Shown in pieces: positions 19,210 to 38,724 of a stretch of DNA of 64,000 nt. The DNA lies in the NCBI GenBank assembly GCA_003215355.1, contig QCKL01000001.1:51001-115000 (forward strand). Direction: 5' to 3'. Within the stretch, counting starts at the first letter, position 1. Each line of letters starts with the position of its first letter. The DNA is from Prochlorococcus sp. AG-409-O23 (GTDB lineage Bacteria > Cyanobacteriota > Cyanobacteriia > PCC-6307 > Cyanobiaceae). Under the pieces are notes generated by a model. It was not told where the DNA came from. It did not search any database and saw only the letters and a list, made by a program, of their open reading frames with translations. A program made the position numbers and the translations under genes.

Positions 19210-19704
19210 TTGGTCAACAGCCTAAACAACTTCTGGTCTTGCTTAAAGATGACAGGTAATTGGCTACGCCTTGATGACCTATCGGTCAAAGGTAAAAAAC
19301 CTTGGTTCAAAAAAACCGCTGCGATTGTCCTGACAATTCTCAGTGTACTAATTTCTGGATGCATCTACTTTCCACTACTTATTGGAATCTTTCAGGGGGT
19401 TAAAGCTTTCTGGATTCCATCTTTGGTTGCCTGTTTCTACTACTTCTTCTGGAGTTATCCAAGACAACTTGCCGCAATAATTACGGCCGTTCTTATATGG
19501 GTAGTAATTGGCCCAGGCATTGCAGGAGTTTGGATCTGGGGACTTTTAAAGATCTTTTCTTTGACTGGAGGAGATTGGTTGGCAAGCATCATTTTGGCTT
19601 TGATTTGGACAACTGGTCCGATTGCCCTAGGCAAGAAAATATTAGATAAATTTGGAATCATTGCTATAGCAAAGAGAATATTAAAAAAAAGATTTATTAA
19701 ATAG
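19210..19704 (+). CDS. hypothetical multi-pass membrane protein
   Basis: 164 aa with about four hydrophobic helices. Confidence 0.5.
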   Translation: MVNSLNNFWSCLKMTGNWLRLDDLSVKGKKPWFKKTAAIVLTILSVLISGCIYFPLLIGIFQGVKAFWIPSLVACFYYFFWSYPRQLAAIITAVLIWVVIGPGIAGVWIWGLLKIFSLTGGDWLASIILALIWTTGPIALGKKILDKFGIIAIAKRILKKRFIK

Positions 19705-20191: not shown

Positions 20192-21232
20192 TTAATCCGC
20201 AGCCACCCTCAATTTCGCTCCAATATCTTTGAAGTTATAGCCCATTGCACGTAGGGCATGCCATAGGTGGCCTTGGAGGGCAAAGAACCCAGCTATGTAA
20301 TGGAAGTTAGCTAAATAGCAACGTCCCGAATGACCCAATGGAGCAGTTCCAGTCAAGTCAACTGAATCCACCCAAGCAGGAGCGATAAGGAAAGTCCGAC
20401 TCAATGGCTCTCCATAAAACTCAATTGGATAGACAGTGGTATTTGTTGCACACCAGAAAGCTGCAACAATTGCCATAAAGCCAATTCCTGCAAGAGAGAA
20501 AGACAAAATTGCTTCGGCTGAAAGCAACCCATCGCCCTTGAATTTGGTGTATTCACCAATTTGTCTAGTCGCAATATGGAATGCGCCACCGGTTATCTCG
20601 GCAAAGGCCAAGAAAGCATGACCACCCATCACATCTTCAAGGCTGTCAATAGCAATGAAATCAAATTGATGATTCCAAATAGCGCTTAGATCAAGGTTGT
20701 AATTGACTTGACGGATCGCACCGATTGCAGGGTCATAAATCCCATGAACCCTTGCCCATTCCACGAACCAAATACACGCAACCCCCATAAAGATCAAATG
20801 GTGGCCAAGGATAAAGGTCTGATTATCTGGGTTGCCCCATTCCAATTTGAATTTTCTGGCCTGAATGATGTCACTTTTTTGAATATCATCCGGGAAAAGC
20901 AGTGCATGCATTAAGCCACCTGCCCCATAAACCATTGAAAAGACAAGGTGCAGGAGGGCAATTGTTACCACACCTGCCCCTGTCCAAACTCCGGCTTCAT
21001 CGAAGCCAATGCCAATTGCAGCCAAATGGGGAAGGCTTACAAAACCCTGATTGCCCATAGGCAAAGAAGGGTCAAAACGAGAAAATTCAAAAAGAGTGTT
21101 GGCGCCCGCAGCGAATGCAATCATTCCTGTATGCGCCGTATGTGAGGCTATGAACCGACCAGAGCGGTCGGTAACCATAGAATTGCCAGCCCACCAGTTA
21201 TAGGTGACGTCTGGATTCCCATAGGTTTGCAT
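20192..21232 (-). CDS. pcb: chlorophyll a/b-binding light-harvesting antenna protein Pcb (IsiA/CP43 family)
   Basis: MQTYGNPDVTYNWWAGNSMVTDRSGRFIASHTAHTGMIAFAAGANTLFE... Six-helix CP43-like protein of 346 aa, typical of Prochlorococcus Pcb. Confidence 0.92.
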   Translation of the reverse strand: MQTYGNPDVTYNWWAGNSMVTDRSGRFIASHTAHTGMIAFAAGANTLFEFSRFDPSLPMGNQGFVSLPHLAAIGIGFDEAGVWTGAGVVTIALLHLVFSMVYGAGGLMHALLFPDDIQKSDIIQARKFKLEWGNPDNQTFILGHHLIFMGVACIWFVEWARVHGIYDPAIGAIRQVNYNLDLSAIWNHQFDFIAIDSLEDVMGGHAFLAFAEITGGAFHIATRQIGEYTKFKGDGLLSAEAILSFSLAGIGFMAIVAAFWCATNTTVYPIEFYGEPLSRTFLIAPAWVDSVDLTGTAPLGHSGRCYLANFHYIAGFFALQGHLWHALRAMGYNFKDIGAKLRVAAD

Positions 21233-21689: not shown

Positions 21690-22241
21690 TTAAACCTCTA
21701 TAGCTTCCACCAAAACCTTACTTAGAGCCGGCAACGGATCGCCACTCCATTCCTGGAGAGTCTTCATCATTGGACAATTACCGGTCTGTTTAATAGCCAT
21801 GACCATCTCATTCCCTGTTAAGACATGCTTGCCAACCAAAATGTGACGGATTAGTTCCAGGTCACCTTGATACTTCATTGCTATATCCGGTAGCTCTTCC
21901 AAAGCGTGTTCAATATCAAGTCCTTTAATAGCTGCATGTTTCTGAAACTCATACCTAGCAGCATTGGTATATGCCCTTGCACCTTGATCTGTAAATCTTT
22001 TCCCCCCTAGCCCCGTCATAGCTTCATTGCCCCCAAAAGAAATCTGATCCTCACGAGGCACTCCTTCATCTATTTCAACCAAGGCATTCATTAAAATTTG
22101 CTTGGCAGACTCCTCAACAGTTTGGCCCGAGCGGGAAGCATTAACCTGTAACAAGGCCAAAAGCTCACTAGATATATTTAGCTTTAACTGAGTCTTGCTC
22201 AAATGGAACAGCGTGATATTTGATACAAAATAGCTGTTCAA
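21690..22241 (-). CDS. hypothetical protein, possible ribbon-helix-helix N-terminus
   Basis: 183 aa. The segment LKLNISSELLALLQVNASRSGQTVEESAKQILMNAL resembles a CopG/Arc-type RHH. The C-terminal 130 aa are unassigned. Confidence 0.45.
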   Translation of the reverse strand: MNSYFVSNITLFHLSKTQLKLNISSELLALLQVNASRSGQTVEESAKQILMNALVEIDEGVPREDQISFGGNEAMTGLGGKRFTDQGARAYTNAARYEFQKHAAIKGLDIEHALEELPDIAMKYQGDLELIRHILVGKHVLTGNEMVMAIKQTGNCPMMKTLQEWSGDPLPALSKVLVEAIEV

Positions 22242-24723: not shown

Positions 24724-24966
24724 TCAAGAGAGGCTCATAAGTTTCAGGCCAATCCCAACAAGTCCCATACCAACCAGACACACATTCACCAATCCCATAC
24801 CTACTGCACCAATAGTAATTACCCCCATAGAGACTCCTCCAATAGCTATAAATCCCATTGGAACTAGCCCTATTGCAATTATTCCCCTAGGAGCAACACC
24901 AAAAGCAACCAATTTCCTTGCTTCTTTGAAGAGTTCACTATTGTCTTGTGGTGAATCAGAAACCAA
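24724..24966 (-). CDS. small membrane protein made of six decapeptide repeats
   Basis: AFGVAPRGII AIGLVPMGFI AIGGVSMGVI TIGAVGMGLV NVCLVGMGLV GIGLKLMSLS. Colinear paralog of the repeat region of the upstream gene. TTG start. Confidence 0.6.
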   Translation of the reverse strand: MVSDSPQDNSELFKEARKLVAFGVAPRGIIAIGLVPMGFIAIGGVSMGVITIGAVGMGLVNVCLVGMGLVGIGLKLMSLS

Positions 24967-24999
24967 AGCGAGTTCAAGTAACCATTAAAGATTTATAAA

Positions 25000-25461
25000 T
25001 CAATCTTCGATTTCTTGCATGTCACAAGGCATCCATAATTGCCCCATACGGTGAACACCACTACATCCCATTTTTTTTGCTTGAGCTTCAGCTTCAGAGC
25101 GGCTGGGATAGGCAAAATGATTTTTCAAGCTCCCATGAGTTGAATGAATATCGGCGTTGTGAATACGGCCATGATGCTCATGACTCTTACCACTTGGACT
25201 CCATTCCCAAACTCCCATAGTGGTTAAACCTGCGGAAATAACCCCCATTCCTACAACTGAAGCATTTACAACGCCCATCGCAACTACTCCTAAGGAAATT
25301 ACTCCCATTGGCACAACACCAATAGTTATGACTCCCATGGGAACAATACCAATCGAAATGAGCCCTAATGGGGCGATCCCAAATGCAATTTTTTTAGGAT
25401 TGCTACCGCAATGATTAGAAGCTTCTTGCACCTCTTGCTGGGATTTTTTTATCTCTGTCAA
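25000..25461 (-). CDS. membrane protein: six decapeptide repeats, a His-rich linker and a C-terminal Cys/His/Trp motif domain (DUF3721-like)
   Basis: I prefer the TTG start at 25459-25461, which overlaps the upstream TGA stop as TTGA. Repeats: AFGIAPLGLI SIGIVPMGVI TIGVVPMGVI SLGVVAMGVV NASVVGMGVI SAGLTTMGVW. These are followed by SGKSHEHHGRIHNADIHSTHGS and then SEAEAQAKKMGCSGVHRMGQLWMPC. Confidence 0.6.
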   Translation of the reverse strand: MTEIKKSQQEVQEASNHCGSNPKKIAFGIAPLGLISIGIVPMGVITIGVVPMGVISLGVVAMGVVNASVVGMGVISAGLTTMGVWEWSPSGKSHEHHGRIHNADIHSTHGSLKNHFAYPSRSEAEAQAKKMGCSGVHRMGQLWMPCDMQEIED

Positions 25462-25691
25462 TGATTCATACCCCCATGATGATGTTGGGCTCCATCTTCT
25501 ACATGATTGGAGCAGGGCATCCATTTATCGCCCATCTTATGCGCCCCAGTGCAGCCAAATTGACTTGCTGCCGCTTCTGCCTCTGCTTTACTAGTAAAAA
25601 GCGCTGGAGTTCCAGAATTTTTAGAAGTGCTTGAGCATCCAATTAGAGGCAAGAGCAATGCTGCTGTAATTCCGAGAAGGAAAGCTCTCAA
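25458..25691 (-). CDS. lipoprotein with a Cys/His/Trp motif domain (DUF3721-like) and a His-rich C-terminus
   Basis: Signal peptide plus lipobox (LLLPLIGCSS), then KAEAEAAASQFGCTGAHKMGDKWMPC, ending in HVEDGAQHHHGGMNH. TTG start. Confidence 0.6.
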   Translation of the reverse strand: MRAFLLGITAALLLPLIGCSSTSKNSGTPALFTSKAEAEAAASQFGCTGAHKMGDKWMPCSNHVEDGAQHHHGGMNH

Positions 25692-25844
25692 TTGTAGTTA
25701 GGGTTAATTTATTCATATATGCTAAGCATAGCCATGCTCCAAAATTGAATTGATTATCCCGTTGCTGCAATTTTGATTTAAAAATTAATCCTAGGTACAG
25801 ATTGCTCGATCCAAACGAAAGAGATCAATTATATCCGATAAATC

Positions 25845-26369
25845 CTACATGATAGATAATGATAATTTTTTCAAATTTAATGTTTTAGAAATTGAGATCC
25901 AACTCAAATTGTGATGTTCCGACGAACTTTTACGGCCTCGAATAATTAGAGGAAACATAGGATTGGAAGTTGTAAATGACTGCTTATATTTATACATAAT
26001 TTCCATATAAGTTTGGAATGTCCAACCATGATTACCTAGATCTTGGCAATGCCAATAGTTTCTCATCGCCCTGTGAAAATCTTGTATCCCAAATTCTGCC
26101 CAACATTGCTGCATAGCTAGTAAATGATCAGTGCCATATTCTAAAAGTTGCTGATACCTAACTAATTCAGGAGCTTCCCCAGACTTATCAGGAGGCAACC
26201 TTTTCGCCAATTCATCAAACCTAATTTTCTCAAGCCTCAACCAACATCGATCTAAAAGAAAAACGGGATTTCTAAGCGACCAAGGCTTACCCAACAAGTC
26301 CTGACCGGTCAATTGCAGATCCTTAATATGGCGACCTGTAAGAGTTAAGTATTGAGTCTGATATTCCAT
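25845..26369 (-). CDS. conserved hypothetical protein
   Basis: 174-aa ORF rich in Trp, His and Cys. No motif recognised. Confidence 0.5.
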   Translation of the reverse strand: MEYQTQYLTLTGRHIKDLQLTGQDLLGKPWSLRNPVFLLDRCWLRLEKIRFDELAKRLPPDKSGEAPELVRYQQLLEYGTDHLLAMQQCWAEFGIQDFHRAMRNYWHCQDLGNHGWTFQTYMEIMYKYKQSFTTSNPMFPLIIRGRKSSSEHHNLSWISISKTLNLKKLSLSIM

Positions 26370-26376
26370 TTGGAGA

Positions 26377-27294
26377 TCAATACTGCAGGGCCGCTGACCA
26401 AATTGGAACAGTAATTATCGCCAATAATGTACTACAAAAAACCAAAGCAGATGCAAGTTCCTGATCCTTACCTATGCCTTCAGCTAAAAGTAATACAGAT
26501 ATCGCTGTTGGCGTTGCAGCCTGCAAAACCAATGCATTCCGCATCAGCATTGGCAGGCCTAAAGCACTGCAAAGGACCAACATTAAACTTGGCAAAATAA
26601 TTAATTTCAAAAATAAGTAGGGCTTAACTTTAACCATAAAATCCTTAAAGGCCGAATTAGCATATTTAACAATCCCACTAAGACGCATACCAACAATTAA
26701 TAGCGCCAACAAAATTAAAATTCTCGATGGGATCCAAATTGCAGAAGTGATTTGATCTTTCCATGGAATTAACTGAATCAACAATGCACCTGCCAATCCC
26801 TTACTTGCAGGACTATTCATAAAAGCGTCTTGGAATCGAAGCCATACATCTTTAGCTTCAAATGCAGCTGAATTTTGATGAAGAAGAATTGGACCTAAGC
26901 TCCAAATGAGCAAGGTTGCTCCAAAGTCATAGCCAATACTAAAGATGAGCGCCTCACTTGGTAAAAACAATAAAGCTACAGGGATTCCAAAGTAACCAGA
27001 GTTACCAAATGCACTTCCCAACATCAGAGTTCTATTAAGAGTCAAGTCCTCAAGTCTTGGGATCATCCTAATGAAAACTATTAGCAAACCTATTGCTAAT
27101 AAAGCCATCACTGCCGCTTCAAGAAGGTACCCATTCAGGCCACTTCTTAAAAGAAGACCCATCAAACTTATCGGAACTCCGAAATTAATAAGGACGCTAG
27201 CTATTGTGCCTGAGATGGCTGGTTTATAACGCCCCAAGTAATAACCCATTAAAAGGCAAGGCAATAATTCAATAACAAGTTTCAGGATGATCAT
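26377..27294 (-). CDS. AEC (auxin efflux carrier) family transporter
   Basis: 305 aa with about 10 TM helices. Both the N-terminus (MIILKLVIELLPCLLMGYYLGR) and the overall layout are typical of the Mem_trans family. Confidence 0.7.
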   Translation of the reverse strand: MIILKLVIELLPCLLMGYYLGRYKPAISGTIASVLINFGVPISLMGLLLRSGLNGYLLEAAVMALLAIGLLIVFIRMIPRLEDLTLNRTLMLGSAFGNSGYFGIPVALLFLPSEALIFSIGYDFGATLLIWSLGPILLHQNSAAFEAKDVWLRFQDAFMNSPASKGLAGALLIQLIPWKDQITSAIWIPSRILILLALLIVGMRLSGIVKYANSAFKDFMVKVKPYLFLKLIILPSLMLVLCSALGLPMLMRNALVLQAATPTAISVLLLAEGIGKDQELASALVFCSTLLAIITVPIWSAALQY

Positions 27295-33585: not shown

Positions 33586-34554
33586 TCAAAAGCGGAACGT
33601 AACTCCTGTCCCAACATGGTGTTGCCAACCTTGACCCCATTTAGAGCCATCCTTATCACTATAAGTAGGTTGCCAATGAACAAATAACGCTGCGTTATCA
33701 CCTACAGGACGACTGATCTCGATTTCACCAGCGAAATCAGTACGTTCGCTTGTACTTGCCTCAGATGATGGGACAAAGAAACGAGGCCCACCTTCTATTT
33801 TGAGAGCAATTAAATCGTAATTAAATTCGACTCCTACTCTAGGATCTGTGTAATTACCTTGCCATTCTCCAACTGAATTCCAACCTTGACGGTGTTCCAA
33901 ACTTACATAAGCTCCATCAGTGAGATCCTTAAAGTTATCGCCGAGTGCGAAATTAACATCCCCTTCACCGAAAGCATATAGTACTTTTGCGCCAATTGAA
34001 TTTTTGGTTCCTTTCTTTTCTTCTCCCTGATTTTCTGTAACTATATAAGGCTGGGTATCTACTGCCACACTAAGGCGATCATTGGGAGCATATGTGGCTT
34101 TCAAGTAACCACGGAAATCTTCTCGTTTGTAGTCAGTGTCGTGCTCAGCATGCTCTTCTTCATGATCGTCATGATCGTCATGATCGTCATGATCGGAATG
34201 TACGGCACCATAAAAATGTTCTGCTTCACCCCATACTCCGACAGGTCCAAAAGCACCTTCAATAGAGAATTTCCCACCGTTCTCTAATCCCCATTCCATC
34301 AAACCTCCAAAGAGTCCATCAAGGCCATAATGTTCTGGTTTTCCTTCAATATTATTTTCAAAACCACCATGAGCTTCCACGGTTATTTGAGGCGTCAACC
34401 TAAATTCACCTGCTTCTAAAGGCTCAGTTCCTCCTCCCCCATGGGCATGCCCCATACGAGGTAATAGTGAAGCATCAACGCTCGTCAATGCAACGCCTAA
34501 GAGTAATGAGGCTTTCAAAGGATTTAGTCTTTTAATAAAATTGTTAGACATCAA
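33586..34554 (-). CDS. putative outer-membrane beta-barrel protein with a His/Asp-rich metal-binding loop
   Basis: Signal peptide (KASLLLGVALTSVDA), alternating beta-strand-like segments, a C-terminal GVTFRF with terminal Phe, and the insert HSDHDDHDDHDDHEEEHAEHD. Lies immediately downstream of znuA. Confidence 0.6.
   Translation of the reverse strand: MMSNNFIKRLNPLKASLLLGVALTSVDASLLPRMGHAHGGGGTEPLEAGEFRLTPQITVEAHGGFENNIEGKPEHYGLDGLFGGLMEWGLENGGKFSIEGAFGPVGVWGEAEHFYGAVHSDHDDHDDHDDHEEEHAEHDTDYKREDFRGYLKATYAPNDRLSVAVDTQPYIVTENQGEEKKGTKNSIGAKVLYAFGEGDVNFALGDNFKDLTDGAYVSLEHRQGWNSVGEWQGNYTDPRVGVEFNYDLIALKIEGGPRFFVPSSEASTSERTDFAGEIEISRPVGDNAALFVHWQPTYSDKDGSKWGQGWQHHVGTGVTFRF
34161..34196. repeat. 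9-bp tandem repeat x4 inside the CDS (encodes the DHD repeats)
   Basis: CATGATCGT x3 followed by CATGATCGG. Confidence 0.9.
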
Positions 34555-34596
34555 ATTGATTAGGTAGTTGAGTTAGGAAATGAAGTAATAGGGCAA

Positions 34597-35520
34597 TTAA
34601 CGAATGTCCGCCCATTTTTGAGCAATCTGATCTGCTGTTTTTTGATCACAAGTGCTTCCCTGACCTTTTGTAATTACACAAATATTTGAGGTCGCAGTCT
34701 CAATTGTTGAAAGGCCACCAGGTGCAAGTCCATCAGGATATAGAGGAGTATTCATTACGGGAATGCCGCTAGCCCGACTGATGCGCCTAAGTGTCTTGTT
34801 TACTGGAAGAGATTCGGTGAACAAGACCCGGCTACCAGACTTTTGCACCTCAGACACAATCTTTCCAAGGCTGGAAGGACGGAGGGTTCCACCCGTGGCG
34901 AAGGAGTCAATCATAGGAAGTTCACGTAGTTTGAATCTTTTAATCAAATGACTAAAAGCACGATGTTGAGTTACGAGTACTCGATTTTCAGTAGGTATCG
35001 ATCTCAATTGAGCAGAAGTCCAGTTACTTAGGTCCTTTAGAACAGCCTTGGCGTTTTCAGTACGTGAGTTTAGTGCTGACACCTCAGATTGAGGCAACAC
35101 CTTTTGGAGGCTTTGTTCAATAACCGTCGACATTGCAGAGACATTATTTGGATCATGCCAAACATGTGGGTCTTTGCCCTTATATCTAGGCATTGCTTTC
35201 TCTGCGACTGCTAGTACAGAAGCTTTTGTAGATAGTTTTAGGGCTGAAGGGGTTAAATAAAAACCGTTATGAAAAACAACATCTGCCTTTGCTATAGCTT
35301 GTAAGTCTTTGGGCTTCAGACGATAAAAGTGTGGATCTCCAGTTGGTGGAATCACACAGTAAACATCCGCAGATTTGGAAGCAATAGTCCGCACAACATC
35401 ACAAAGAACACCATCAAAAGCAACTACACCGGGTTTAACCTCAGAAGCTTTTGCAAGGCTTGAGCCAAAGAAAAGACTACAAACAACCGAGCAGCCAGTA
35501 AGAACGAATCTAACTCTCAC
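34597..35520 (-). CDS. znuA: periplasmic metal (probably zinc) binding protein of an ABC transporter, ZnuA/TroA family
   Basis: Signal peptide plus cluster-9 solute-binding motifs (GDPHFYRLKPKD, DPHVWHDP). Adjacent to znuC, zur and znuB. Confidence 0.82.
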   Translation of the reverse strand: MRVRFVLTGCSVVCSLFFGSSLAKASEVKPGVVAFDGVLCDVVRTIASKSADVYCVIPPTGDPHFYRLKPKDLQAIAKADVVFHNGFYLTPSALKLSTKASVLAVAEKAMPRYKGKDPHVWHDPNNVSAMSTVIEQSLQKVLPQSEVSALNSRTENAKAVLKDLSNWTSAQLRSIPTENRVLVTQHRAFSHLIKRFKLRELPMIDSFATGGTLRPSSLGKIVSEVQKSGSRVLFTESLPVNKTLRRISRASGIPVMNTPLYPDGLAPGGLSTIETATSNICVITKGQGSTCDQKTADQIAQKWADIR

Positions 35521-35586
35521 GCAATCAAGAAAACAATTTCACGAAATGGTAAGCATCTAGGCCCAATCTGAAAGAAAAATGTCTTG

Positions 35587-35607
35587 AAATGAAAACGATT
35601 TTCATTT
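35587..35607. promoter_or_regulatory. Zur/Fur-type operator palindrome in the znuA-znuC divergent intergenic region
   Basis: AAATGAAAA-CGA-TTTTCATTT, a perfect 9-3-9 inverted repeat, AT-rich like Fur-family boxes, lying between the divergent znuA and znuC starts. Confidence 0.6.
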
Positions 35608-35639
35608 TTAAGCGTGCGCTAGTCTCTGAAGGTGAGATT

Positions 35640-35666
35640 TTCACGCTATTCACGCTATTCACGCAT
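35640..35666. repeat. three tandem 9-bp direct repeats just upstream of the znuC start
   Basis: TTCACGCTA, TTCACGCTA, TTCACGCAT, ending 6 nt before the TTG at 35673. Confidence 0.85.
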
Positions 35667-35672
35667 TCTTGA

Positions 35673-36368
35673 TTGACTAATCTCATTGCAAAAAGCCTGT
35701 CATTTTCCTATGGCAAAGAATCTGTTCTAAAGGACATTTCTCTAGAGCTGAAAACAGGAACTCTTACAGCTCTTGTTGGTCCAAATGGAGCAGGAAAATC
35801 AACCTTGCTGCGCCTATTACAAGGTCAGCTCATCTCGCATCAAGGAGAAATTTTTTTAGATGAGCATCCTTTAGGAGCAAATCGAAGTCAAGTTGCATTA
35901 ATGCCTCAAAGAAGCTCTATCAATTGGAATTTCCCTATCACTACTGAAGGATTGGTAGCACTGGGTCAAATGAATGCTGCCAATCAATCATGTTGCAAGA
36001 CAGAAGCCTCACTTCAACGGGTTGGTCTTGCCGCTTTAGCTAAGAAACGACTTGATTCACTGTCTGGAGGACAGCAACAAAGAGCCTTACTTGCAAAAAC
36101 GCTGGCACAAAATGCATCTGTTTTCCTTTTGGATGAACCCTGTGCGGCACTTGACCCTCCATCCAGGGAGCAGTTTCTAAGCATTATTCGTCAGCTTGCT
36201 AAAGCGGGGTTAACGATATTTGTCAGTAGCCATGACTGGGGTCAAGCTTTAAATGCTTACGACAAAGTCATAACACTTGATCGAACTGTTTTGGCCTTTG
36301 GAACTCCAGAAGAGGTGAGAAGCAAGCTTCAATCAATTAGTAGTATGGGTAACCACTGTTGTGACTAA
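35673..36368 (+). CDS. znuC: metal ABC transporter ATP-binding protein
   Basis: Walker A GPNGAGKST, signature LSGGQQQR, Walker B FLLDEP. TTG start. Confidence 0.85.
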   Translation: MTNLIAKSLSFSYGKESVLKDISLELKTGTLTALVGPNGAGKSTLLRLLQGQLISHQGEIFLDEHPLGANRSQVALMPQRSSINWNFPITTEGLVALGQMNAANQSCCKTEASLQRVGLAALAKKRLDSLSGGQQQRALLAKTLAQNASVFLLDEPCAALDPPSREQFLSIIRQLAKAGLTIFVSSHDWGQALNAYDKVITLDRTVLAFGTPEEVRSKLQSISSMGNHCCD

Positions 36369-36375
36369 TCAATAT

Positions 36376-36807
36376 TCAGGTTTCAGCCACTTTCTGACGC
36401 TGGTGACAACTCTTACAAAGGCCAAAGAATTCAAGTGTATGAAACAAAAGCTCAAAGTTTTTTGTTTGCGTCTTAGGCAATTCAATGTTTTTGATTGGAC
36501 AGGACTTCAAAACAACTGTTTGACCACAGTCAACACAAGTCAGATGATGATGGTCCCTACTCACAGGGCTATAGAGAGTCTCGCCTGTTGGGAGGTTGCG
36601 ACATCGAACCAATCCTTTCTGCTGAAGAGTGCGAAGGTGTCGATAAACAGTAGTCAACCCCATATTGGAAGACCCTTCGATCAATTTGCGATGAAGTTGT
36701 TGGCCGCTGATCTCATCAGCACAATTGTTCAACTGCTCCAATATATTTTGTTGACGAGTCGTCAAACCAGTGCTTTGCTCGACCATTCTCTGAGGTGTGA
36801 ATCTCAT
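36376..36807 (-). CDS. zur: Fur-family transcriptional regulator, probably zinc uptake regulator
   Basis: Winged-helix region (GLTTVYRHLRTLQQKGLV), HHHLTCVDCG and CKSC metal sites. Embedded in the znu locus. Confidence 0.8.
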   Translation of the reverse strand: MRFTPQRMVEQSTGLTTRQQNILEQLNNCADEISGQQLHRKLIEGSSNMGLTTVYRHLRTLQQKGLVRCRNLPTGETLYSPVSRDHHHLTCVDCGQTVVLKSCPIKNIELPKTQTKNFELLFHTLEFFGLCKSCHQRQKVAET

Positions 36808-36836
36808 GCCTTTACCAAGATTAATCTTTTAGTTCA

Positions 36837-37625
36837 TTGTTAGAAGCATTTTTCACCAATTGGTGGGCTTTACCATTCCTAATGGCACTTTTAATCGGAA
36901 TGCTTTGTCCTGCAACTGGTGCTGTCTTGATCACGCATCGTCGCCTTCTCCAAGCCAATTTAATTTCGCATGCAGTAGTTCCAGGGATAGTCTTAGCTCT
37001 GGCTATAGGAGTTGATCCTTCATTTGGTGGGGTGCTTAGTGGATTAGTCGGGGCTCTTGTTGCAGAAAGACTTGCCTCAAAAAGCAAAGGAAACAATGAG
37101 GGGATCATTAATACTGTTCTCGCAGGCACACTTGGCTTAGGGGTTTTATTGATTCCTCTTTTAGAGATAAGAGTTGATCTGGAATCTATTTTATTTGGAG
37201 ATCTTCTTGCCGTTGGGACAGATGATCTAATGAGAACCTTAGTCGCTGCAATTGCATTACTCCTACTCTTAAGAACTTCATATCAGAAATTGGTATATCT
37301 TGGCCTAGACGCTGAAGGTGCAGCTGCTAGTGGTTTAAATGTTTCTTCATTGCGTTTAACACTTGGCCTTGTAACTGCCCTCGTTGTTGTGAGTTCTATG
37401 GCAGCTGTAGGTGTCATTTTGGTTATAGGTTTGCTCTCAGCACCAGCTATTTTTGGCTTAAGTCATGCCCCTAGCTTGCATTCTGCAATGGTACGTTCTG
37501 CTGGGTATGGAACTCTATTGACATTTATAGGTTTTTTGCTTTCGATTGGCTTTAACCTTTCACCTGGCCCTCTTATAGGAGTTCTTTGCTTACTTTCTGT
37601 ACTGTTTCTCAAAGAGAAAACGTGA
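36837..37625 (+). CDS. znuB: metal ABC transporter permease (ABC-3 family)
   Basis: 262 aa with about 8 TM helices. N-terminus WWALPFLMALLIGMLCPATGAVLITHRRLLQANLISHAVVPG is typical of ZnuB/TroCD-type permeases. Confidence 0.85.
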   Translation: MLEAFFTNWWALPFLMALLIGMLCPATGAVLITHRRLLQANLISHAVVPGIVLALAIGVDPSFGGVLSGLVGALVAERLASKSKGNNEGIINTVLAGTLGLGVLLIPLLEIRVDLESILFGDLLAVGTDDLMRTLVAAIALLLLLRTSYQKLVYLGLDAEGAAASGLNVSSLRLTLGLVTALVVVSSMAAVGVILVIGLLSAPAIFGLSHAPSLHSAMVRSAGYGTLLTFIGFLLSIGFNLSPGPLIGVLCLLSVLFLKEKT

Positions 37626-37977
37626 ATAAATTAGAGGCAGGTAAGTCCATTGCGAACTAGCAATCGTTATCATTTTTTTAATAAAATTCTTTTGCGATTG
37701 TCATTATCCAAAGAATTGGCCAATCATGGCTGATCTCAGGGCCTCCAGGCTGCGGCACGGCTACCTAGGGGCTAATCGCAATGTAGAAACAAAAAGGTGC
37801 ATGGGTCTATTTGCACCTCGCTTGATACCCATTCTTCTACCTGAACAACAAGCACAGCGTTTAGAAAAATAGATCCCAGGAATCATCAATAAGCAAATTG
37901 AAGTGGCATTCTTGAGAAAATTACATTTACCAAATTTATTGTTATATCTAAAAAAATAGCCTCTAAAAAAGCAAGTT

Positions 37978-38724
37978 TTAATAGTTCTTTCCGACAGTAG
38001 ACTGCTGTCTAACTAACTCAAAGAACTCTTGTTTAAGATTAGGGTCATGTCGGAAATCTCCTCTGACCACCGAGTTGATCATGCTGGTATCTGGCTCTTT
38101 AACTCCTCGCCACTTCATGCAATAATGTTGTGCTTTTATAATTATTCCTAGCCCTTTAGGATTACATAGGTTCTCAATTTCATCAGCAAGTATCATTACG
38201 GCCTCTTCCTGAATATGAGGCCTAGAAAATACCCAATCTGCAACTCTTGCAAATTTTGAAAGGCCAATGACTTTATCTCCAGGCTTAATGCCTATCCAAC
38301 AATCCCCAAGGATTGGGACCAAATGATGTGAGCATGCAGATCTAACAGTTATTGGTCCCACTGTATAAATTTCATCTAAATTTTTATCATTTGGAAAGCT
38401 AGTGACTTTTGGCTGCTTATGATATCTACCTTTGAATACTTCATTGATATACATCCTAGATACTCTTTCTGCTGTTTCCTGAGTGTTATGGTCATTGTCA
38501 ACATCAATCAAAAGAGTTTTAAGCAATTCTCTAACCCTAGTTGCTACCTCTCTTTCTAGAGTTTCTAGTTCACCAGGCAATATATAATCGGAAATATTAT
38601 CATTAGCATGAAATCTAGCGTTATCAGATTTAATCCTTGAGCGAATTATTTCAGAAACCAACTTGCAAGAAAACCTTTCTTCACTCCCCTCATTAATATT
38701 TTTGGTTGGGTTTGTACTAGTCAT
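37978..38724 (-). CDS. folE: GTP cyclohydrolase I (type IA)
   Basis: VRSACSHHLVPILG...VIGLSKFARVADWVFSRPHIQEE, the FolE zinc and catalytic motifs. Confidence 0.88.
   Translation of the reverse strand: MTSTNPTKNINEGSEERFSCKLVSEIIRSRIKSDNARFHANDNISDYILPGELETLEREVATRVRELLKTLLIDVDNDHNTQETAERVSRMYINEVFKGRYHKQPKVTSFPNDKNLDEIYTVGPITVRSACSHHLVPILGDCWIGIKPGDKVIGLSKFARVADWVFSRPHIQEEAVMILADEIENLCNPKGLGIIIKAQHYCMKWRGVKEPDTSMINSVVRGDFRHDPNLKQEFFELVRQQSTVGKNY

What the first reader, a model, noticed from the sequence alone, without database searches (positions are those of the whole stretch)
24724..25730. Three-gene cluster: His-rich Cys/His/Trp-motif proteins plus membrane proteins built from six decapeptide repeats
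Gene 1 (25691-25458) encodes a lipoprotein. It carries the motif AEAEAAASQFGCTGAHKMGDKWMPC and ends in HHHGGMNH. Gene 2 starts at a TTG overlapping gene 1's stop (TTGA), which suggests translational coupling. It encodes six tandem 10-residue repeats of consensus (S/T)IG(V/I)VPMGVI, then a His-rich linker (HEHHGRIHNADIHSTH), then a second copy of the motif (SEAEAQAKKMGCSGVHRMGQLWMPC). Gene 3 (24966-24724) is a free-standing copy of the six-repeat module and is colinear with gene 2, with Asn opening repeat 5 in both. A 13-bp palindrome, TATGCTAAGCATA (25718-25730), lies about 30 nt upstream of gene 1. The mix of His tracts, conserved Cys/His/Met/Trp residues and a Gly/Met-rich periodic membrane module suggests a metal-handling or redox envelope system. 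I do not know of any functional description of it. I recall the short motif as DUF3721.
Basis: partly seen in the sequence, partly recalled or inferred. Interest (0 to 1): 0.7.

Follow-up and report, generated by a model that had tools for sequence, protein, structure and literature searches.

The report
Cyanobacterial Met-ladder membrane metal-handling gene cluster
Three small Prochlorococcus envelope genes (a His-tailed lipoprotein and two membrane proteins carrying a strictly conserved ladder of methionines) look like an undescribed system for catching a trace metal in the cell envelope and passing it on, but no function has been shown by experiment.

Summary
Three co-oriented minus-strand genes encode a DUF3721 lipoprotein with a His-rich tail (gene 1), a decapeptide-repeat membrane module fused to a second DUF3721 (gene 2), and a free-standing copy of the repeat module (gene 3). 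The 10-residue periodicity is far beyond chance. The 13-bp palindrome is not.

Gene 1 followed by gene 2 is a conserved operon across picocyanobacteria (67 of 87 genome loci, plus freshwater Cyanobium and Aphanothece). Gene 3 is an accessory gene (8 of 87 loci) under purifying selection.

The main new result concerns the repeat module. In 191 distinct modules, the five "x-Met-Gly" positions are replaced only by His or Cys, while neighbouring hydrophobic positions swap I/V/L/F freely. DUF3721 keeps an invariant Cys-x3-His-x-Met…Trp-Met-Pro-Cys-x2-His motif.

The neighbours recur: ZnuABC/Zur, HupE/UreJ, a His-rich SomB-like porin and, for a His-variant of the module, a PetR/PetP–cytochrome c6 copper switch.

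My best reading is an envelope metal capture-and-relay system. Ligand chemistry favours Cu(I) and gene context favours Zn. The fold of the repeat module is unresolved, I found no expression data, and no paper in the library mentions the family. I rate it a new variant of a known kind, of moderate to high interest.

The parts
25458..25691 (-). Gene 1: a 77-aa lipoprotein made of a signal peptide with lipobox, a DUF3721 mini-domain and a His-rich C-terminal tail.
   Evidence: ORF. Pfam DUF3721 scores 66.7 bits against a cut-off of 27. 68 distinct homologues sit directly upstream of gene 2.
25635..25691 (-). Gene 1 signal peptide and lipobox (residues 1-19, L16-I17-G18-C19).
   Evidence: Read directly from the sequence. 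A lipobox-like motif is present in 54 of 68 homologues. Freshwater homologues have an A-x-A signal peptide instead.
25503..25598 (-). DUF3721 domain of gene 1 (residues 32-63), with C47, H51, M53, W57, M58, C60 and H63.
   Evidence: The H/M/M triad is present in 317 of 327 distinct domains. C, H, M, W, M, C and H are invariant in alignment A4.
25461..25502 (-). His-rich tail of gene 1 (VEDGAQHHHGGMNH).
   Evidence: Across the family, the tail has a median of 7 His in 19 residues, and 59 of 68 homologues have at least 3 His in the last 6 residues.
25000..25461 (-). Gene 2: a 153-aa protein whose TTG start overlaps the stop of gene 1. It has a hydrophilic N-terminus with an H-C-G motif, the decapeptide-repeat membrane module, a linker and a DUF3721 domain.
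25405..25413 (-). H17-C18-G19 motif of gene 2, just before the K-K pair, predicted to face the cytoplasm.
   Evidence: HCG is present in 85 of 85 distinct fusion homologues. The sidedness is inferred from the positive-inside rule.
25207..25389 (-). Repeat module of gene 2 (residues 25-85): six 10-residue repeats with the Met ladder M42, M52, M62, M72, M82.
   Evidence: Periodicity. Column composition: the Met positions are replaced only by His or Cys. Kyte-Doolittle hydropathy stays above 1.6 over about 57 residues.
25135..25182 (-). His-rich linker of gene 2 (HEHHGRIHNADIHSTH).
   Evidence: Read from the sequence. It is not conserved: 19 of 85 homologues have at least 3 His.
25021..25110 (-). 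DUF3721 domain of gene 2 (residues 118-147).
   Evidence: Pfam score 60.7 bits. AlphaFold2 gives pLDDT 85-89, with helix 121-131 and a beta-hairpin at 136-139 and 142-145. The window copy lacks the PC-x-x-H histidine that 81 of 85 homologues keep.
24724..24966 (-). Gene 3: an 80-aa free-standing repeat module with no DUF3721 and no HCG motif.
   Evidence: dN/dS is 0.12-0.37 against six homologues. Where present, it always lies directly after gene 2.
25718..25730 (.). 13-bp palindrome TATGCTAAGCATA. It is probably not a functional element.
   Evidence: It is one of 28 perfect 6-1-6 palindromes in the window and is absent from related loci. The only relative with at most one mismatch lies upstream of znuA, where about one chance match is expected by my own estimate.
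25753..25782 (-). Promoter-like site (TTTAAA, 18-nt spacer, GATAAT) upstream of gene 1. This is weak evidence.
   Evidence: Consensus scan: 2 sites found against 4.7 expected in shuffles.

Best explanation
This is an envelope trace-metal capture-and-relay system. Its parts are unrelated to any characterised metal transporter, and its most likely substrate is a soft metal, Cu(I).

Shown by sequence:
- Gene 1 is exported and probably lipid-anchored. It displays a 30-residue DUF3721 mini-domain (a helix plus a beta-hairpin flanked by two Cys) with invariant His, Met, Trp, Met and His, followed by a flexible poly-His tail.
- Gene 2 carries a conserved His-Cys-Gly motif and a Lys-Lys pair, then a hydrophobic module of about 60 residues. 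In that module a Met recurs every 10 residues and is replaced in relatives only by His or Cys. A second DUF3721 domain follows.

Inferred:
- Gene 2 inserts with its N-terminus inside and crosses the membrane an odd number of times (about three). This puts its DUF3721 in the periplasm beside gene 1.
- The His tail and DUF3721 of gene 1 pick up metal that has entered through porins.
- The metal passes to the homologous domain of gene 2 by ligand exchange, as in MerP to MerT or Atx1 to a P-type ATPase.
- The Met/His/Cys ladder then either conducts the ion to the cytoplasmic His-Cys site or holds it at the membrane for a neighbouring importer.
- Gene 3 is a paralogous membrane subunit that pairs with gene 2.
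For: 1. Ligand-type conservation in the membrane module. Over 191 distinct modules, positions 42/52/62/72/82 read M175/H16, M180/H10, M190/R1, M169/C21/L1 and M184/I1/V1. Adjacent hydrophobic columns interchange I/V/L/F freely. In the gene 3 family the same column is Cys in 15 sequences and Met in 3.
2. A His-variant subfamily in other cyanobacteria has three A-H-G units, then three S-M-G units, then a His/Met-rich tail.
3. DUF3721 keeps H-x-M…W-M in 317 of 327 distinct domains, and where these residues are lost, two or more usually go together. C, H, M, W, M, C and H are invariant across Synechococcus and Cyanobium. His, two Met and Trp is also the ligand set of the Cu(I) site of CusF (my own knowledge).
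4. Poly-His tails occur in 59 of 68 gene 1 homologues, and HCG in 85 of 85 gene 2 homologues.
5. The gene 1 then gene 2 operon is conserved from Prochlorococcus to freshwater Aphanothece and Cyanobium.
6. The neighbours are metal-related in several different arrangements:
   - ZnuABC/Zur
   - HupE/UreJ
   - a SomB-like porin with a His-rich N-terminus that shares a CTAG-repeat element with gene 1
7. In L147 the His-variant lies 250 nt downstream of a cytochrome c6 gene. Its upstream region carries TTGAC-N5-GTCTTTTGAC, next to a BlaI/CopY-type regulator and an M48/M56 protease. This matches the copper-responsive PetR/PetP system and the slr0601 promoter sequence given in bioRxiv 10.1101/2020.07.31.226407.
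Against: - There are no expression, binding or mutant data for any member.
- The fold of the repeat module is unresolved. AlphaFold2 gives coil (pLDDT about 42) for gene 2 and one implausibly long helix (pLDDT 64) for gene 3.
- The His and Cys substitutions each define a clade, so they represent few independent events.
- The Met and Trp of DUF3721 could simply form the hydrophobic core of a tiny domain, and its C-x3-H…C-x2-H tetrad looks like a Zn site.
- Gene context in picocyanobacteria points to Zn/Mn-type ABC importers, not to copper genes.
- The copper-switch context rests on one locus. The second His-variant locus, L091, lacks it.
- No Zur box, PetR motif or other known operator lies upstream of gene 1 in the window.
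Confidence: 0.4

Rival explanations
1. This is a zinc-acquisition accessory of ZnuABC. Gene 1 is a His-tailed periplasmic Zn(II) scavenger whose DUF3721 binds Zn through Cys2His2, in the manner of ZinT, PhtD or PA4063. Gene 2 is the same domain tethered to the inner membrane beside the importer. The Met residues are structural.
For: - The pair lies within 1 kb of znuB-zur-znuC-znuA in 20 or more Prochlorococcus loci. In the window it lies 9 kb from that cluster.
- Other picocyanobacteria show different arrangements with Znu-type genes: L092/93, L096, L097, L101, L111, L112 and L115.
- C-x3-H…C-x2-H is invariant, and tails are poly-His.
- His-rich outer-membrane proteins sit beside znuA.
- In WH8102, three uncharacterised genes flanking znuABC are derepressed in a zur mutant (PMC9337993).
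Against: - No Zur box lies upstream of gene 1 in any locus tested.
- In L092 the perfect Zur box precedes the other Znu system, not the one next to DUF3721.
- The Fur-family gene next to gene 2 in five contigs is not Zur-type. It is 29-31% identical to the window Zur and lacks the residue equivalent to SynZur C95.
- Met thioethers are poor Zn(II) ligands (my own knowledge), yet five ladder Met and two domain Met are essentially invariant.
- Much of the Prochlorococcus synteny is inherited rather than independent.
Confidence: 0.27
2. This is a nickel or cobalt handling system. The poly-His tail works like those of UreE, CooJ or HypB, and feeds a HupE/UreJ-type permease.
For: - HupE/UreJ lies directly adjacent in six Prochlorococcus loci and in L096 and L097.
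- C-terminal poly-His tails are a hallmark of Ni chaperones (my own knowledge).
- CbiQ lies next to the His-variant in L091.
Against: - HupE adjacency is the minority context.
- Met is not a usual Ni or Co ligand (my own knowledge).
- No urease, Ni-SOD or B12 genes or riboswitch are nearby.
Confidence: 0.07
3. This is an envelope function that does not transport metal. One option is a disulfide or methionine-based redox buffer. Another is a structural membrane protein whose Gly/Met repeats serve packing or oligomerisation.
For: - A Cys pair flanks the hairpin.
- An MsrPQ-like pair, rhodanese and TauE lie near the pair in Aphanothece and Cyanobium.
- AhpC and rubredoxin lie nearby in L001.
- Gly-rich repeats are common oligomerisation motifs (my own knowledge).
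Against: - It does not explain why Met is replaced only by His or Cys.
- It does not explain the poly-His tails.
- It does not explain the recurring metal-importer neighbours.
Confidence: 0.15
4. The ORFs, gene 3 in particular, are chance reading frames in low-complexity sequence.
For: - The exact gene 1 and gene 3 proteins are absent from the protein collection.
- The proteins are small and start at TTG.
Against: - There are more than 1200 homologues.
- dN/dS is 0.12-0.37.
- Order and spacing are conserved.
- The Pfam domain hits are strong.
Confidence: 0.02

Closest known systems
MerP / MerT mercury uptake pair
   Same: A small exported metal-binding protein works with a small inner-membrane protein of about three passes. 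That membrane protein carries ligand residues inside the membrane and an acceptor site on the cytoplasmic side. Fused versions of the two parts exist. This is the architecture I propose here (analogy from my own knowledge).
   Different: There is no sequence relationship: Pfam MerT and HMA give no hit at E<=1. The ligands here are Met, His and one Cys rather than Cys pairs. The membrane part is a decapeptide repeat. No reductase partner is present.
CusF / CopC periplasmic Cu(I) chaperones, and the Met motifs of CTR1 and CcoA copper importers
   Same: The ligand chemistry matches. His, two Met and Trp appear in DUF3721, and there are regularly spaced Met (His in relatives) in the membrane module.
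   Different: The folds are unrelated. DUF3721 is a helix plus hairpin of about 30 residues, not an OB or cupredoxin-like barrel. There are no Pfam hits. No experiment supports the comparison.
ZinT, polyhistidine-triad (Pht) proteins and PA4063: His-rich Zn scavengers that serve ZnuA/AdcA
   Same: These are exported or lipid-anchored, His-rich, and encoded next to znuABC/zur.
   Different: There is no homology. This family adds invariant Met and a fused membrane module. No Zur box was found.
Pfam GLTT repeat (PF01744) and Pfam DUF3721 (PF12518)
   Same: Both models score above their gathering cut-offs. NCBI names homologues 'GLTT repeat protein'.
   Different: GLTT is a compositional repeat family and carries no functional meaning here. 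DUF3721 has no assigned function, and no paper in the library mentions it.
Slr0601 of Synechocystis (PetR/PetP copper regulon)
   Same: It is a small membrane protein found only in cyanobacteria, co-regulated with cytochrome c6 and repressed by copper (bioRxiv 10.1101/2020.07.31.226407). A His-variant of the repeat module sits right after a petJ gene with a PetR-type upstream motif in L147.
   Different: I could not obtain the Slr0601 sequence, so homology is untested. The paper describes two predicted transmembrane domains.

Membership tests
Pfam DUF3721 (PF12518) | The profile HMM score is above the gathering cut-off of 27 bits. | tested here: met
   Gene 1 scores 66.7 bits and gene 2 scores 60.7 bits.
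Pfam GLTT repeat (PF01744) | The profile HMM score is above the gathering cut-off of 21 bits. | tested here: met
   Gene 2 scores 60.3 bits and gene 3 scores 37.5 bits. The match is to a Gly-centred 5-residue periodicity and implies no function.
Bacterial lipoprotein | An N-terminal signal peptide is followed by a lipobox [LVI][ASTVI][GAS]C. | tested here: met
   Gene 1 has L16-I17-G18-C19 after a basic and hydrophobic leader. A lipobox-like motif occurs in 54 of 68 homologues.
Bacterial lipoprotein | The Cys is actually lipidated and the signal peptide is cleaved by signal peptidase II. | not testable with these tools
   This needs biochemistry.
Zur regulon | A Zur box lies in the promoter region. 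| tested here: not met
   The only Zur box in the window is at 35588-35606, between znuA and znuC. None was found upstream of gene 1 in related loci.
Zur regulon | Transcription is derepressed at low Zn or in a zur mutant. | not testable with these tools
   No expression data were found. In WH8102, uncharacterised genes next to znuABC are derepressed (PMC9337993), but I could not check what they are.
PetR/PetP copper regulon | A GAC-N5-GTC PetR site lies upstream. | tested here: not met
   The window has none near the cluster: its three sites are at 19608, 36753 and 61481. The feature is met only for the petJ gene upstream of the His-variant in L147.
MerT / MerP (HMA), CusF, CopC, Ctr families | Sequence matches the Pfam family profile. 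| tested here: not met
   The Pfam scan at E<=1 returns only DUF3721, GLTT and a sub-threshold DUF726 hit. NCBIfam gives nothing relevant. A PDB sequence search gives nothing.
Pentapeptide-repeat (Rfr) beta-helix proteins | Sequence matches the Pfam pentapeptide models, or a right-handed quadrilateral beta-helix is predicted. | tested here: not met
   No Pfam pentapeptide hit at E<=1. AlphaFold2 gives coil or a single helix, not a beta-helix. Both models are of low confidence, so the fold itself stays open.
Anti-phage defence or phage protein families | Sequence matches PADLOC or PHROGs models, or phage genomes. | tested here: not met
   Searches give no hits.

The most novel reading that the evidence does not exclude
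The 60-residue Gly/Met decapeptide-repeat module would be a new minimal class of metal-ion conduit: a thioether (Met/His/Cys) ladder that carries Cu(I) across the cyanobacterial plasma membrane. It would be fed by the DUF3721 periplasmic domain. Its His-variant (possibly including Synechocystis Slr0601) would be switched on by the PetR/PetP system when copper runs out. That would make it the missing high-affinity copper importer of cyanobacteria.
Probability: 0.15. Interest if true: 0.85.

Novelty: new variant of a known kind. Interest (0 to 1): 0.6.

Why it matters
Prochlorococcus and marine Synechococcus carry out a large share of ocean photosynthesis at extremely low trace-metal concentrations. 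How copper and zinc cross their envelope is only partly known, and to my knowledge no plasma-membrane copper importer has been established for cyanobacteria.

This gene pair is nearly universal in Prochlorococcus and spreads across picocyanobacteria. Its conserved residues read like a chain of metal ligands running from the periplasm, through the membrane, to the cytoplasm. If that reading is right, it defines a new, very small type of metal transporter or chaperone. It also gives direct experimental handles: Met-ladder and His/Cys mutants, metal quotas and metal-binding assays.

A by-product is a candidate regulator-operator pair, an RHH-like protein and CTAG repeats, that links the operon to a His-rich porin.

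Tried and rejected
- Palindrome as operator: rejected. The window has 28 equal palindromes and this one is not conserved. Its one near-copy, upstream of znuA, is within chance expectation.
- Zur box upstream of gene 1: not found in the window or in related loci.
- PetR motif in the window: absent near the cluster.
- Fur-family gene next to gene 2 in five contigs, read as Zur: rejected. It is 29-31% identical to the window Zur and lacks the Cys at the position of SynZur C95.
- Shared SBF/Mem_trans neighbour between the window and Aphanothece: the two proteins are not detectably homologous.
- Structure: AlphaFold2 on gene 2 and gene 3 did not resolve the repeat module. Foldseek against the PDB gave nothing below E=6. 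PDB sequence searches gave nothing.
- Phage origin or defence role: no hits.
- Plasmid copies of the His-variant: none.
- RNA elements: no Rfam hit.
- DNA-level tandem repeat: none.
- Literature: nothing on DUF3721, PF12518 or GLTT in Prochlorococcus. One search on sync_1217 was uninformative.
- Slr0601 and SYNW0968/0972/0973: I could not obtain these sequences to test family membership.
Full report
**What is there.** The window has 40.8% G+C and its closest relatives are Prochlorococcus. On the minus strand, 24724-25691 holds three tightly spaced genes.
- Gene 1 (25691-25458, 77 aa) can only start at TTG. It has a signal peptide with the lipobox L-I-G-C, a Pfam DUF3721 domain (E=1.5e-18) and the tail VEDGAQHHHGGMNH.
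- Gene 2 starts at the TTG that overlaps the TGA of gene 1 (25461) and ends at 25000. Homologues are about 147 aa and begin 4-14 nt after the gene 1 stop, so the 153-aa reading is right and the 174-aa ATG reading is not. It matches Pfam GLTT (1.3e-16) and DUF3721 (1.1e-16).
- Gene 3 (24966-24724, 80 aa) matches GLTT only (1.9e-09). It aligns without gaps to the gene 2 module (52% identity, E=2e-21).

**Is it more than chance?** The decapeptide periodicity is. Identity at lag 10 is 0.56 in gene 2 and 0.49 in gene 3, and 0 of 20000 shuffles reach these values. There is also a 5-residue sub-period. No repeat shows at the DNA level, so the pattern is old and maintained at the protein level. Gene 3 evolves under purifying selection (dN/dS 0.12-0.37). 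The palindrome is not above chance: the window holds 28 perfect 6-1-6 palindromes, and this one is absent from every related locus.

**Conservation of the cluster.** A genome scan returned 80 Prochlorococcus loci, out of at least 534 confirmed. Together with loci fetched by exact protein look-up, 67 of 87 have gene 1 directly upstream of gene 2, 20 have gene 2 alone (a high-light-type context next to hisS), and only 8 have gene 3. The pair also exists in freshwater Aphanothece and Cyanobium and in most picocyanobacterial metagenome contigs. Proteins with DUF3721 alone are small, secreted and restricted to picocyanobacteria in the searches run here. The conserved unit is therefore gene 1 plus gene 2, and gene 3 is accessory.

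**Residue-level evidence.**
- In 327 distinct DUF3721 domains, the His, Met and Met of C-x-G-x-H-x-M…W-M-P-C are present in 317. Where these residues are lost, two or more usually go together.
- Across Synechococcus and Cyanobium, C, H, M, W, M and C, a His three residues after the second Cys, and a C-terminal His are all invariant.
- Gene 1 homologues have a median of 7 His in a 19-residue tail.
- Gene 2 homologues always carry H-C-G before the Lys-Lys pair (85 of 85). Only 19 of 85 have a His-rich linker.
- The most telling result comes from the membrane module. Over 191 distinct modules, the "x-Met-Gly" columns read M175/H16, M180/H10, M190/R1, M169/C21/L1 and M184/I1/V1. Neighbouring hydrophobic columns interchange I, V, L and F freely.
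- The Cys cases are the gene 3 family, with Cys in 15 of 18 sequences and Met in 3, including the window.
- The His cases form a subfamily in other cyanobacteria (Geitlerinema, Limnothrix). It has three A-H-G units, then three S-M-G units, then a His/Met-rich tail, and no DUF3721.
- A position that tolerates only Met, His or Cys is what one expects of a metal ligand, and the preference for Met points to a soft ion.

**Structure.** AlphaFold2 models the gene 2 DUF3721 with confidence (pLDDT 85-89) as a helix followed by a beta-hairpin, with the two Cys flanking the hairpin. By strand register, H137, M139 and M144 would lie on one face of the hairpin. The repeat module is not resolved. It comes out as coil at pLDDT about 42 in gene 2 and as a single 55-residue helix at mean pLDDT 64 in gene 3. 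Foldseek and the PDB sequence searches give nothing. Hydropathy stays above the membrane threshold for about 57 residues. Gene 1 shows that DUF3721 works outside the cytoplasm. The gene 2 N-terminus is basic and has no signal peptide. An N-in topology with an odd number of passes (about three) is therefore the simplest fit. This is also an inference.

**Neighbourhood.**
- The window has its own zinc island 9 kb away. It comprises a His/Asp-rich outer-membrane-like protein, ZnuA, a Zur box (AATGAAAACGATTTTCATT, 35588-35606), ZnuC, Zur and ZnuB.
- In 20 or more other Prochlorococcus loci the pair lies within 1 kb of znuB.
- In six loci the pair lies next to HupE/UreJ.
- In 23 loci it is divergent from a SomB-like porin with a His-rich N-terminus.
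- Other picocyanobacteria show further arrangements with Znu-type ABC genes, an ArsP_1/DUF1980 permease pair and HupE.
- Against a simple Zur-regulon reading, no Zur box precedes gene 1 anywhere tested. In L092 the perfect Zur box belongs to the other Znu system. The Fur-family gene beside gene 2 in five contigs is not Zur-type by the SynZur site residues given in PMC9337993.
- For the His-variant, one locus (L147) places it 250 nt after a cytochrome c6 gene. The upstream region of that gene contains TTGAC-N5-GTCTTTTGAC, the only GAC-N5-GTC in 12.4 kb. It lies beside a BlaI/CopY-type regulator and an M48/M56 protease. No terminator-like site lies in between. This matches the copper-sensing PetR/PetP system and the slr0601 promoter sequence published for Synechocystis. 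The other His-variant locus lacks this context.

**Interpretation.** The parts read as a chain of ligands across the envelope: the His tail and DUF3721 of gene 1 in the periplasm, then the DUF3721 of gene 2, then the Met/His/Cys ladder in the membrane, then the cytoplasmic His-Cys. I therefore favour a capture-and-relay system analogous in logic to MerP/MerT (confidence about 0.65 for metal handling in general). On the identity of the metal the evidence splits.
- Ligand chemistry (invariant Met, replaced only by His or Cys, with a His/Met/Met/Trp set as in CusF) and the L147 context favour Cu(I).
- Gene context in picocyanobacteria, the C-x3-H…C-x2-H tetrad and the poly-His tails favour Zn.
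- HupE adjacency keeps Ni and Co open.
- I put Cu(I) first at 0.4, including the general relay model, and Zn second at 0.27.

**Comparison with known families.** Membership of Pfam DUF3721 and GLTT is met by score, but neither carries a function. Pfam profiles for MerT, HMA, CusF, CopC, Ctr and the pentapeptide repeats gave no hit. PADLOC, PHROGs and phage genomes are also negative. No paper in the library mentions the family. The system therefore works like known chaperone-plus-permease pairs but belongs to none of them. I call it a new variant of a known kind.

**Regulatory by-product, from related loci and not the window.** An element made of CTAG-N5-6-CTAG, with a third CTAG in many sites, sits immediately 5' of the start codons of gene 1 and of the divergent porin gene. 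About 45 of the 60 such sites in 945 kb are at these two places. Its presence tracks a 205-aa protein encoded just downstream. That protein has an N-terminus I read as ribbon-helix-helix-like (no family above threshold) and a Cys-rich C-terminus. Element and protein co-occur in 25 of 26 loci that have the protein, against 1 of 45 that lack it (Fisher p=7e-17, not corrected for phylogeny). The window has neither.

Noticed in passing
window 33586-38724: This is a zinc-uptake island. It holds an outer-membrane-like 322-aa protein with an HSDHDDHDDHDDHEEEH run (33586-34554, minus strand), ZnuA (34597-35520, minus), a Zur box AATGAAAACGATTTTCATT (35588-35606), ZnuC (35673-36368, plus), a Zur with the SynZur-type ligand pattern (about 36400-36786, minus), ZnuB (36855-37622, plus) and GTP cyclohydrolase I (37981-38724, minus).
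   Followed up: partly
related loci, e.g. L012 5600-5620 and 5872-5905, and L027 5716 and 5872: A CTAG-N5-6-CTAG element, often with a third CTAG, lies directly 5' of the start codons of gene 1 and of the divergent His-rich SomB-like porin gene. About 45 of the 60 such sites in 945 kb are at these two places. The window lacks the element.
   Followed up: yes
related loci, e.g. L082 6743-7357 (minus strand): A 205-aa protein is encoded convergently just after gene 2 in 28 loci. Its N-terminus looks ribbon-helix-helix-like and its C-terminus carries a Cys-Cys-Cys motif. It co-occurs with the CTAG element in 25 of 26 loci that have the protein, against 1 of 45 that lack it, which makes it a candidate cognate regulator.
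   Followed up: partly
window 21690-22241 (minus strand): A 183-aa ORF has a weak ribbon-helix-helix-like N-terminus (Pfam FitA-like_RHH E=0.009; 24% identity to the N-terminus of the 205-aa protein, E=0.009). It lies 2.5 kb downstream of gene 3 on the same strand.
   Followed up: partly
L147 3685-6402: A His-variant of the repeat module (three A-H-G, then three S-M-G, then a His/Met-rich tail) lies 250 nt after a cytochrome c6 gene. That gene has TTGAC-N5-GTCTTTTGAC upstream and a BlaI/CopY-type regulator plus an M48/M56 protease alongside. The layout is that of the PetR/PetP copper switch.
   Followed up: partly
L038 12110-12424, L042 11970-12248, L050 8708-8980: These loci carry a third, divergent secreted DUF3721 paralogue with H-N-L in place of H-M-M and no His tail.
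   Followed up: no
window 35546-35556: ATGGTAAGCAT lies about 25 nt upstream of the znuA start. It is the only match in the window within one mismatch of the core of the gene 1 palindrome. About one such match is expected by chance, so this is probably coincidence.
   Followed up: yes
window 25845-26369 (minus strand): A 174-aa ORF directly upstream of gene 1 has no match in Pfam or NCBIfam. The next gene upstream (26377-27294) is a Mem_trans/SBF-type transporter.
   Followed up: partly
L092 9003-12050; also L094, L095, L104, L111 and L115: An ArsP_1 permease plus a DUF1980 protein pair repeatedly follows the DUF3721 gene or gene pair in Synechococcus-type contigs. Its substrate is unknown to me.
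   Followed up: no
window 20192-21232 (minus strand): This is a Pcb/IsiA-type chlorophyll-binding antenna gene (Pfam PSII, 1.8e-40). The same family lies near the gene 2-only loci of high-light-type genomes.
   Followed up: no
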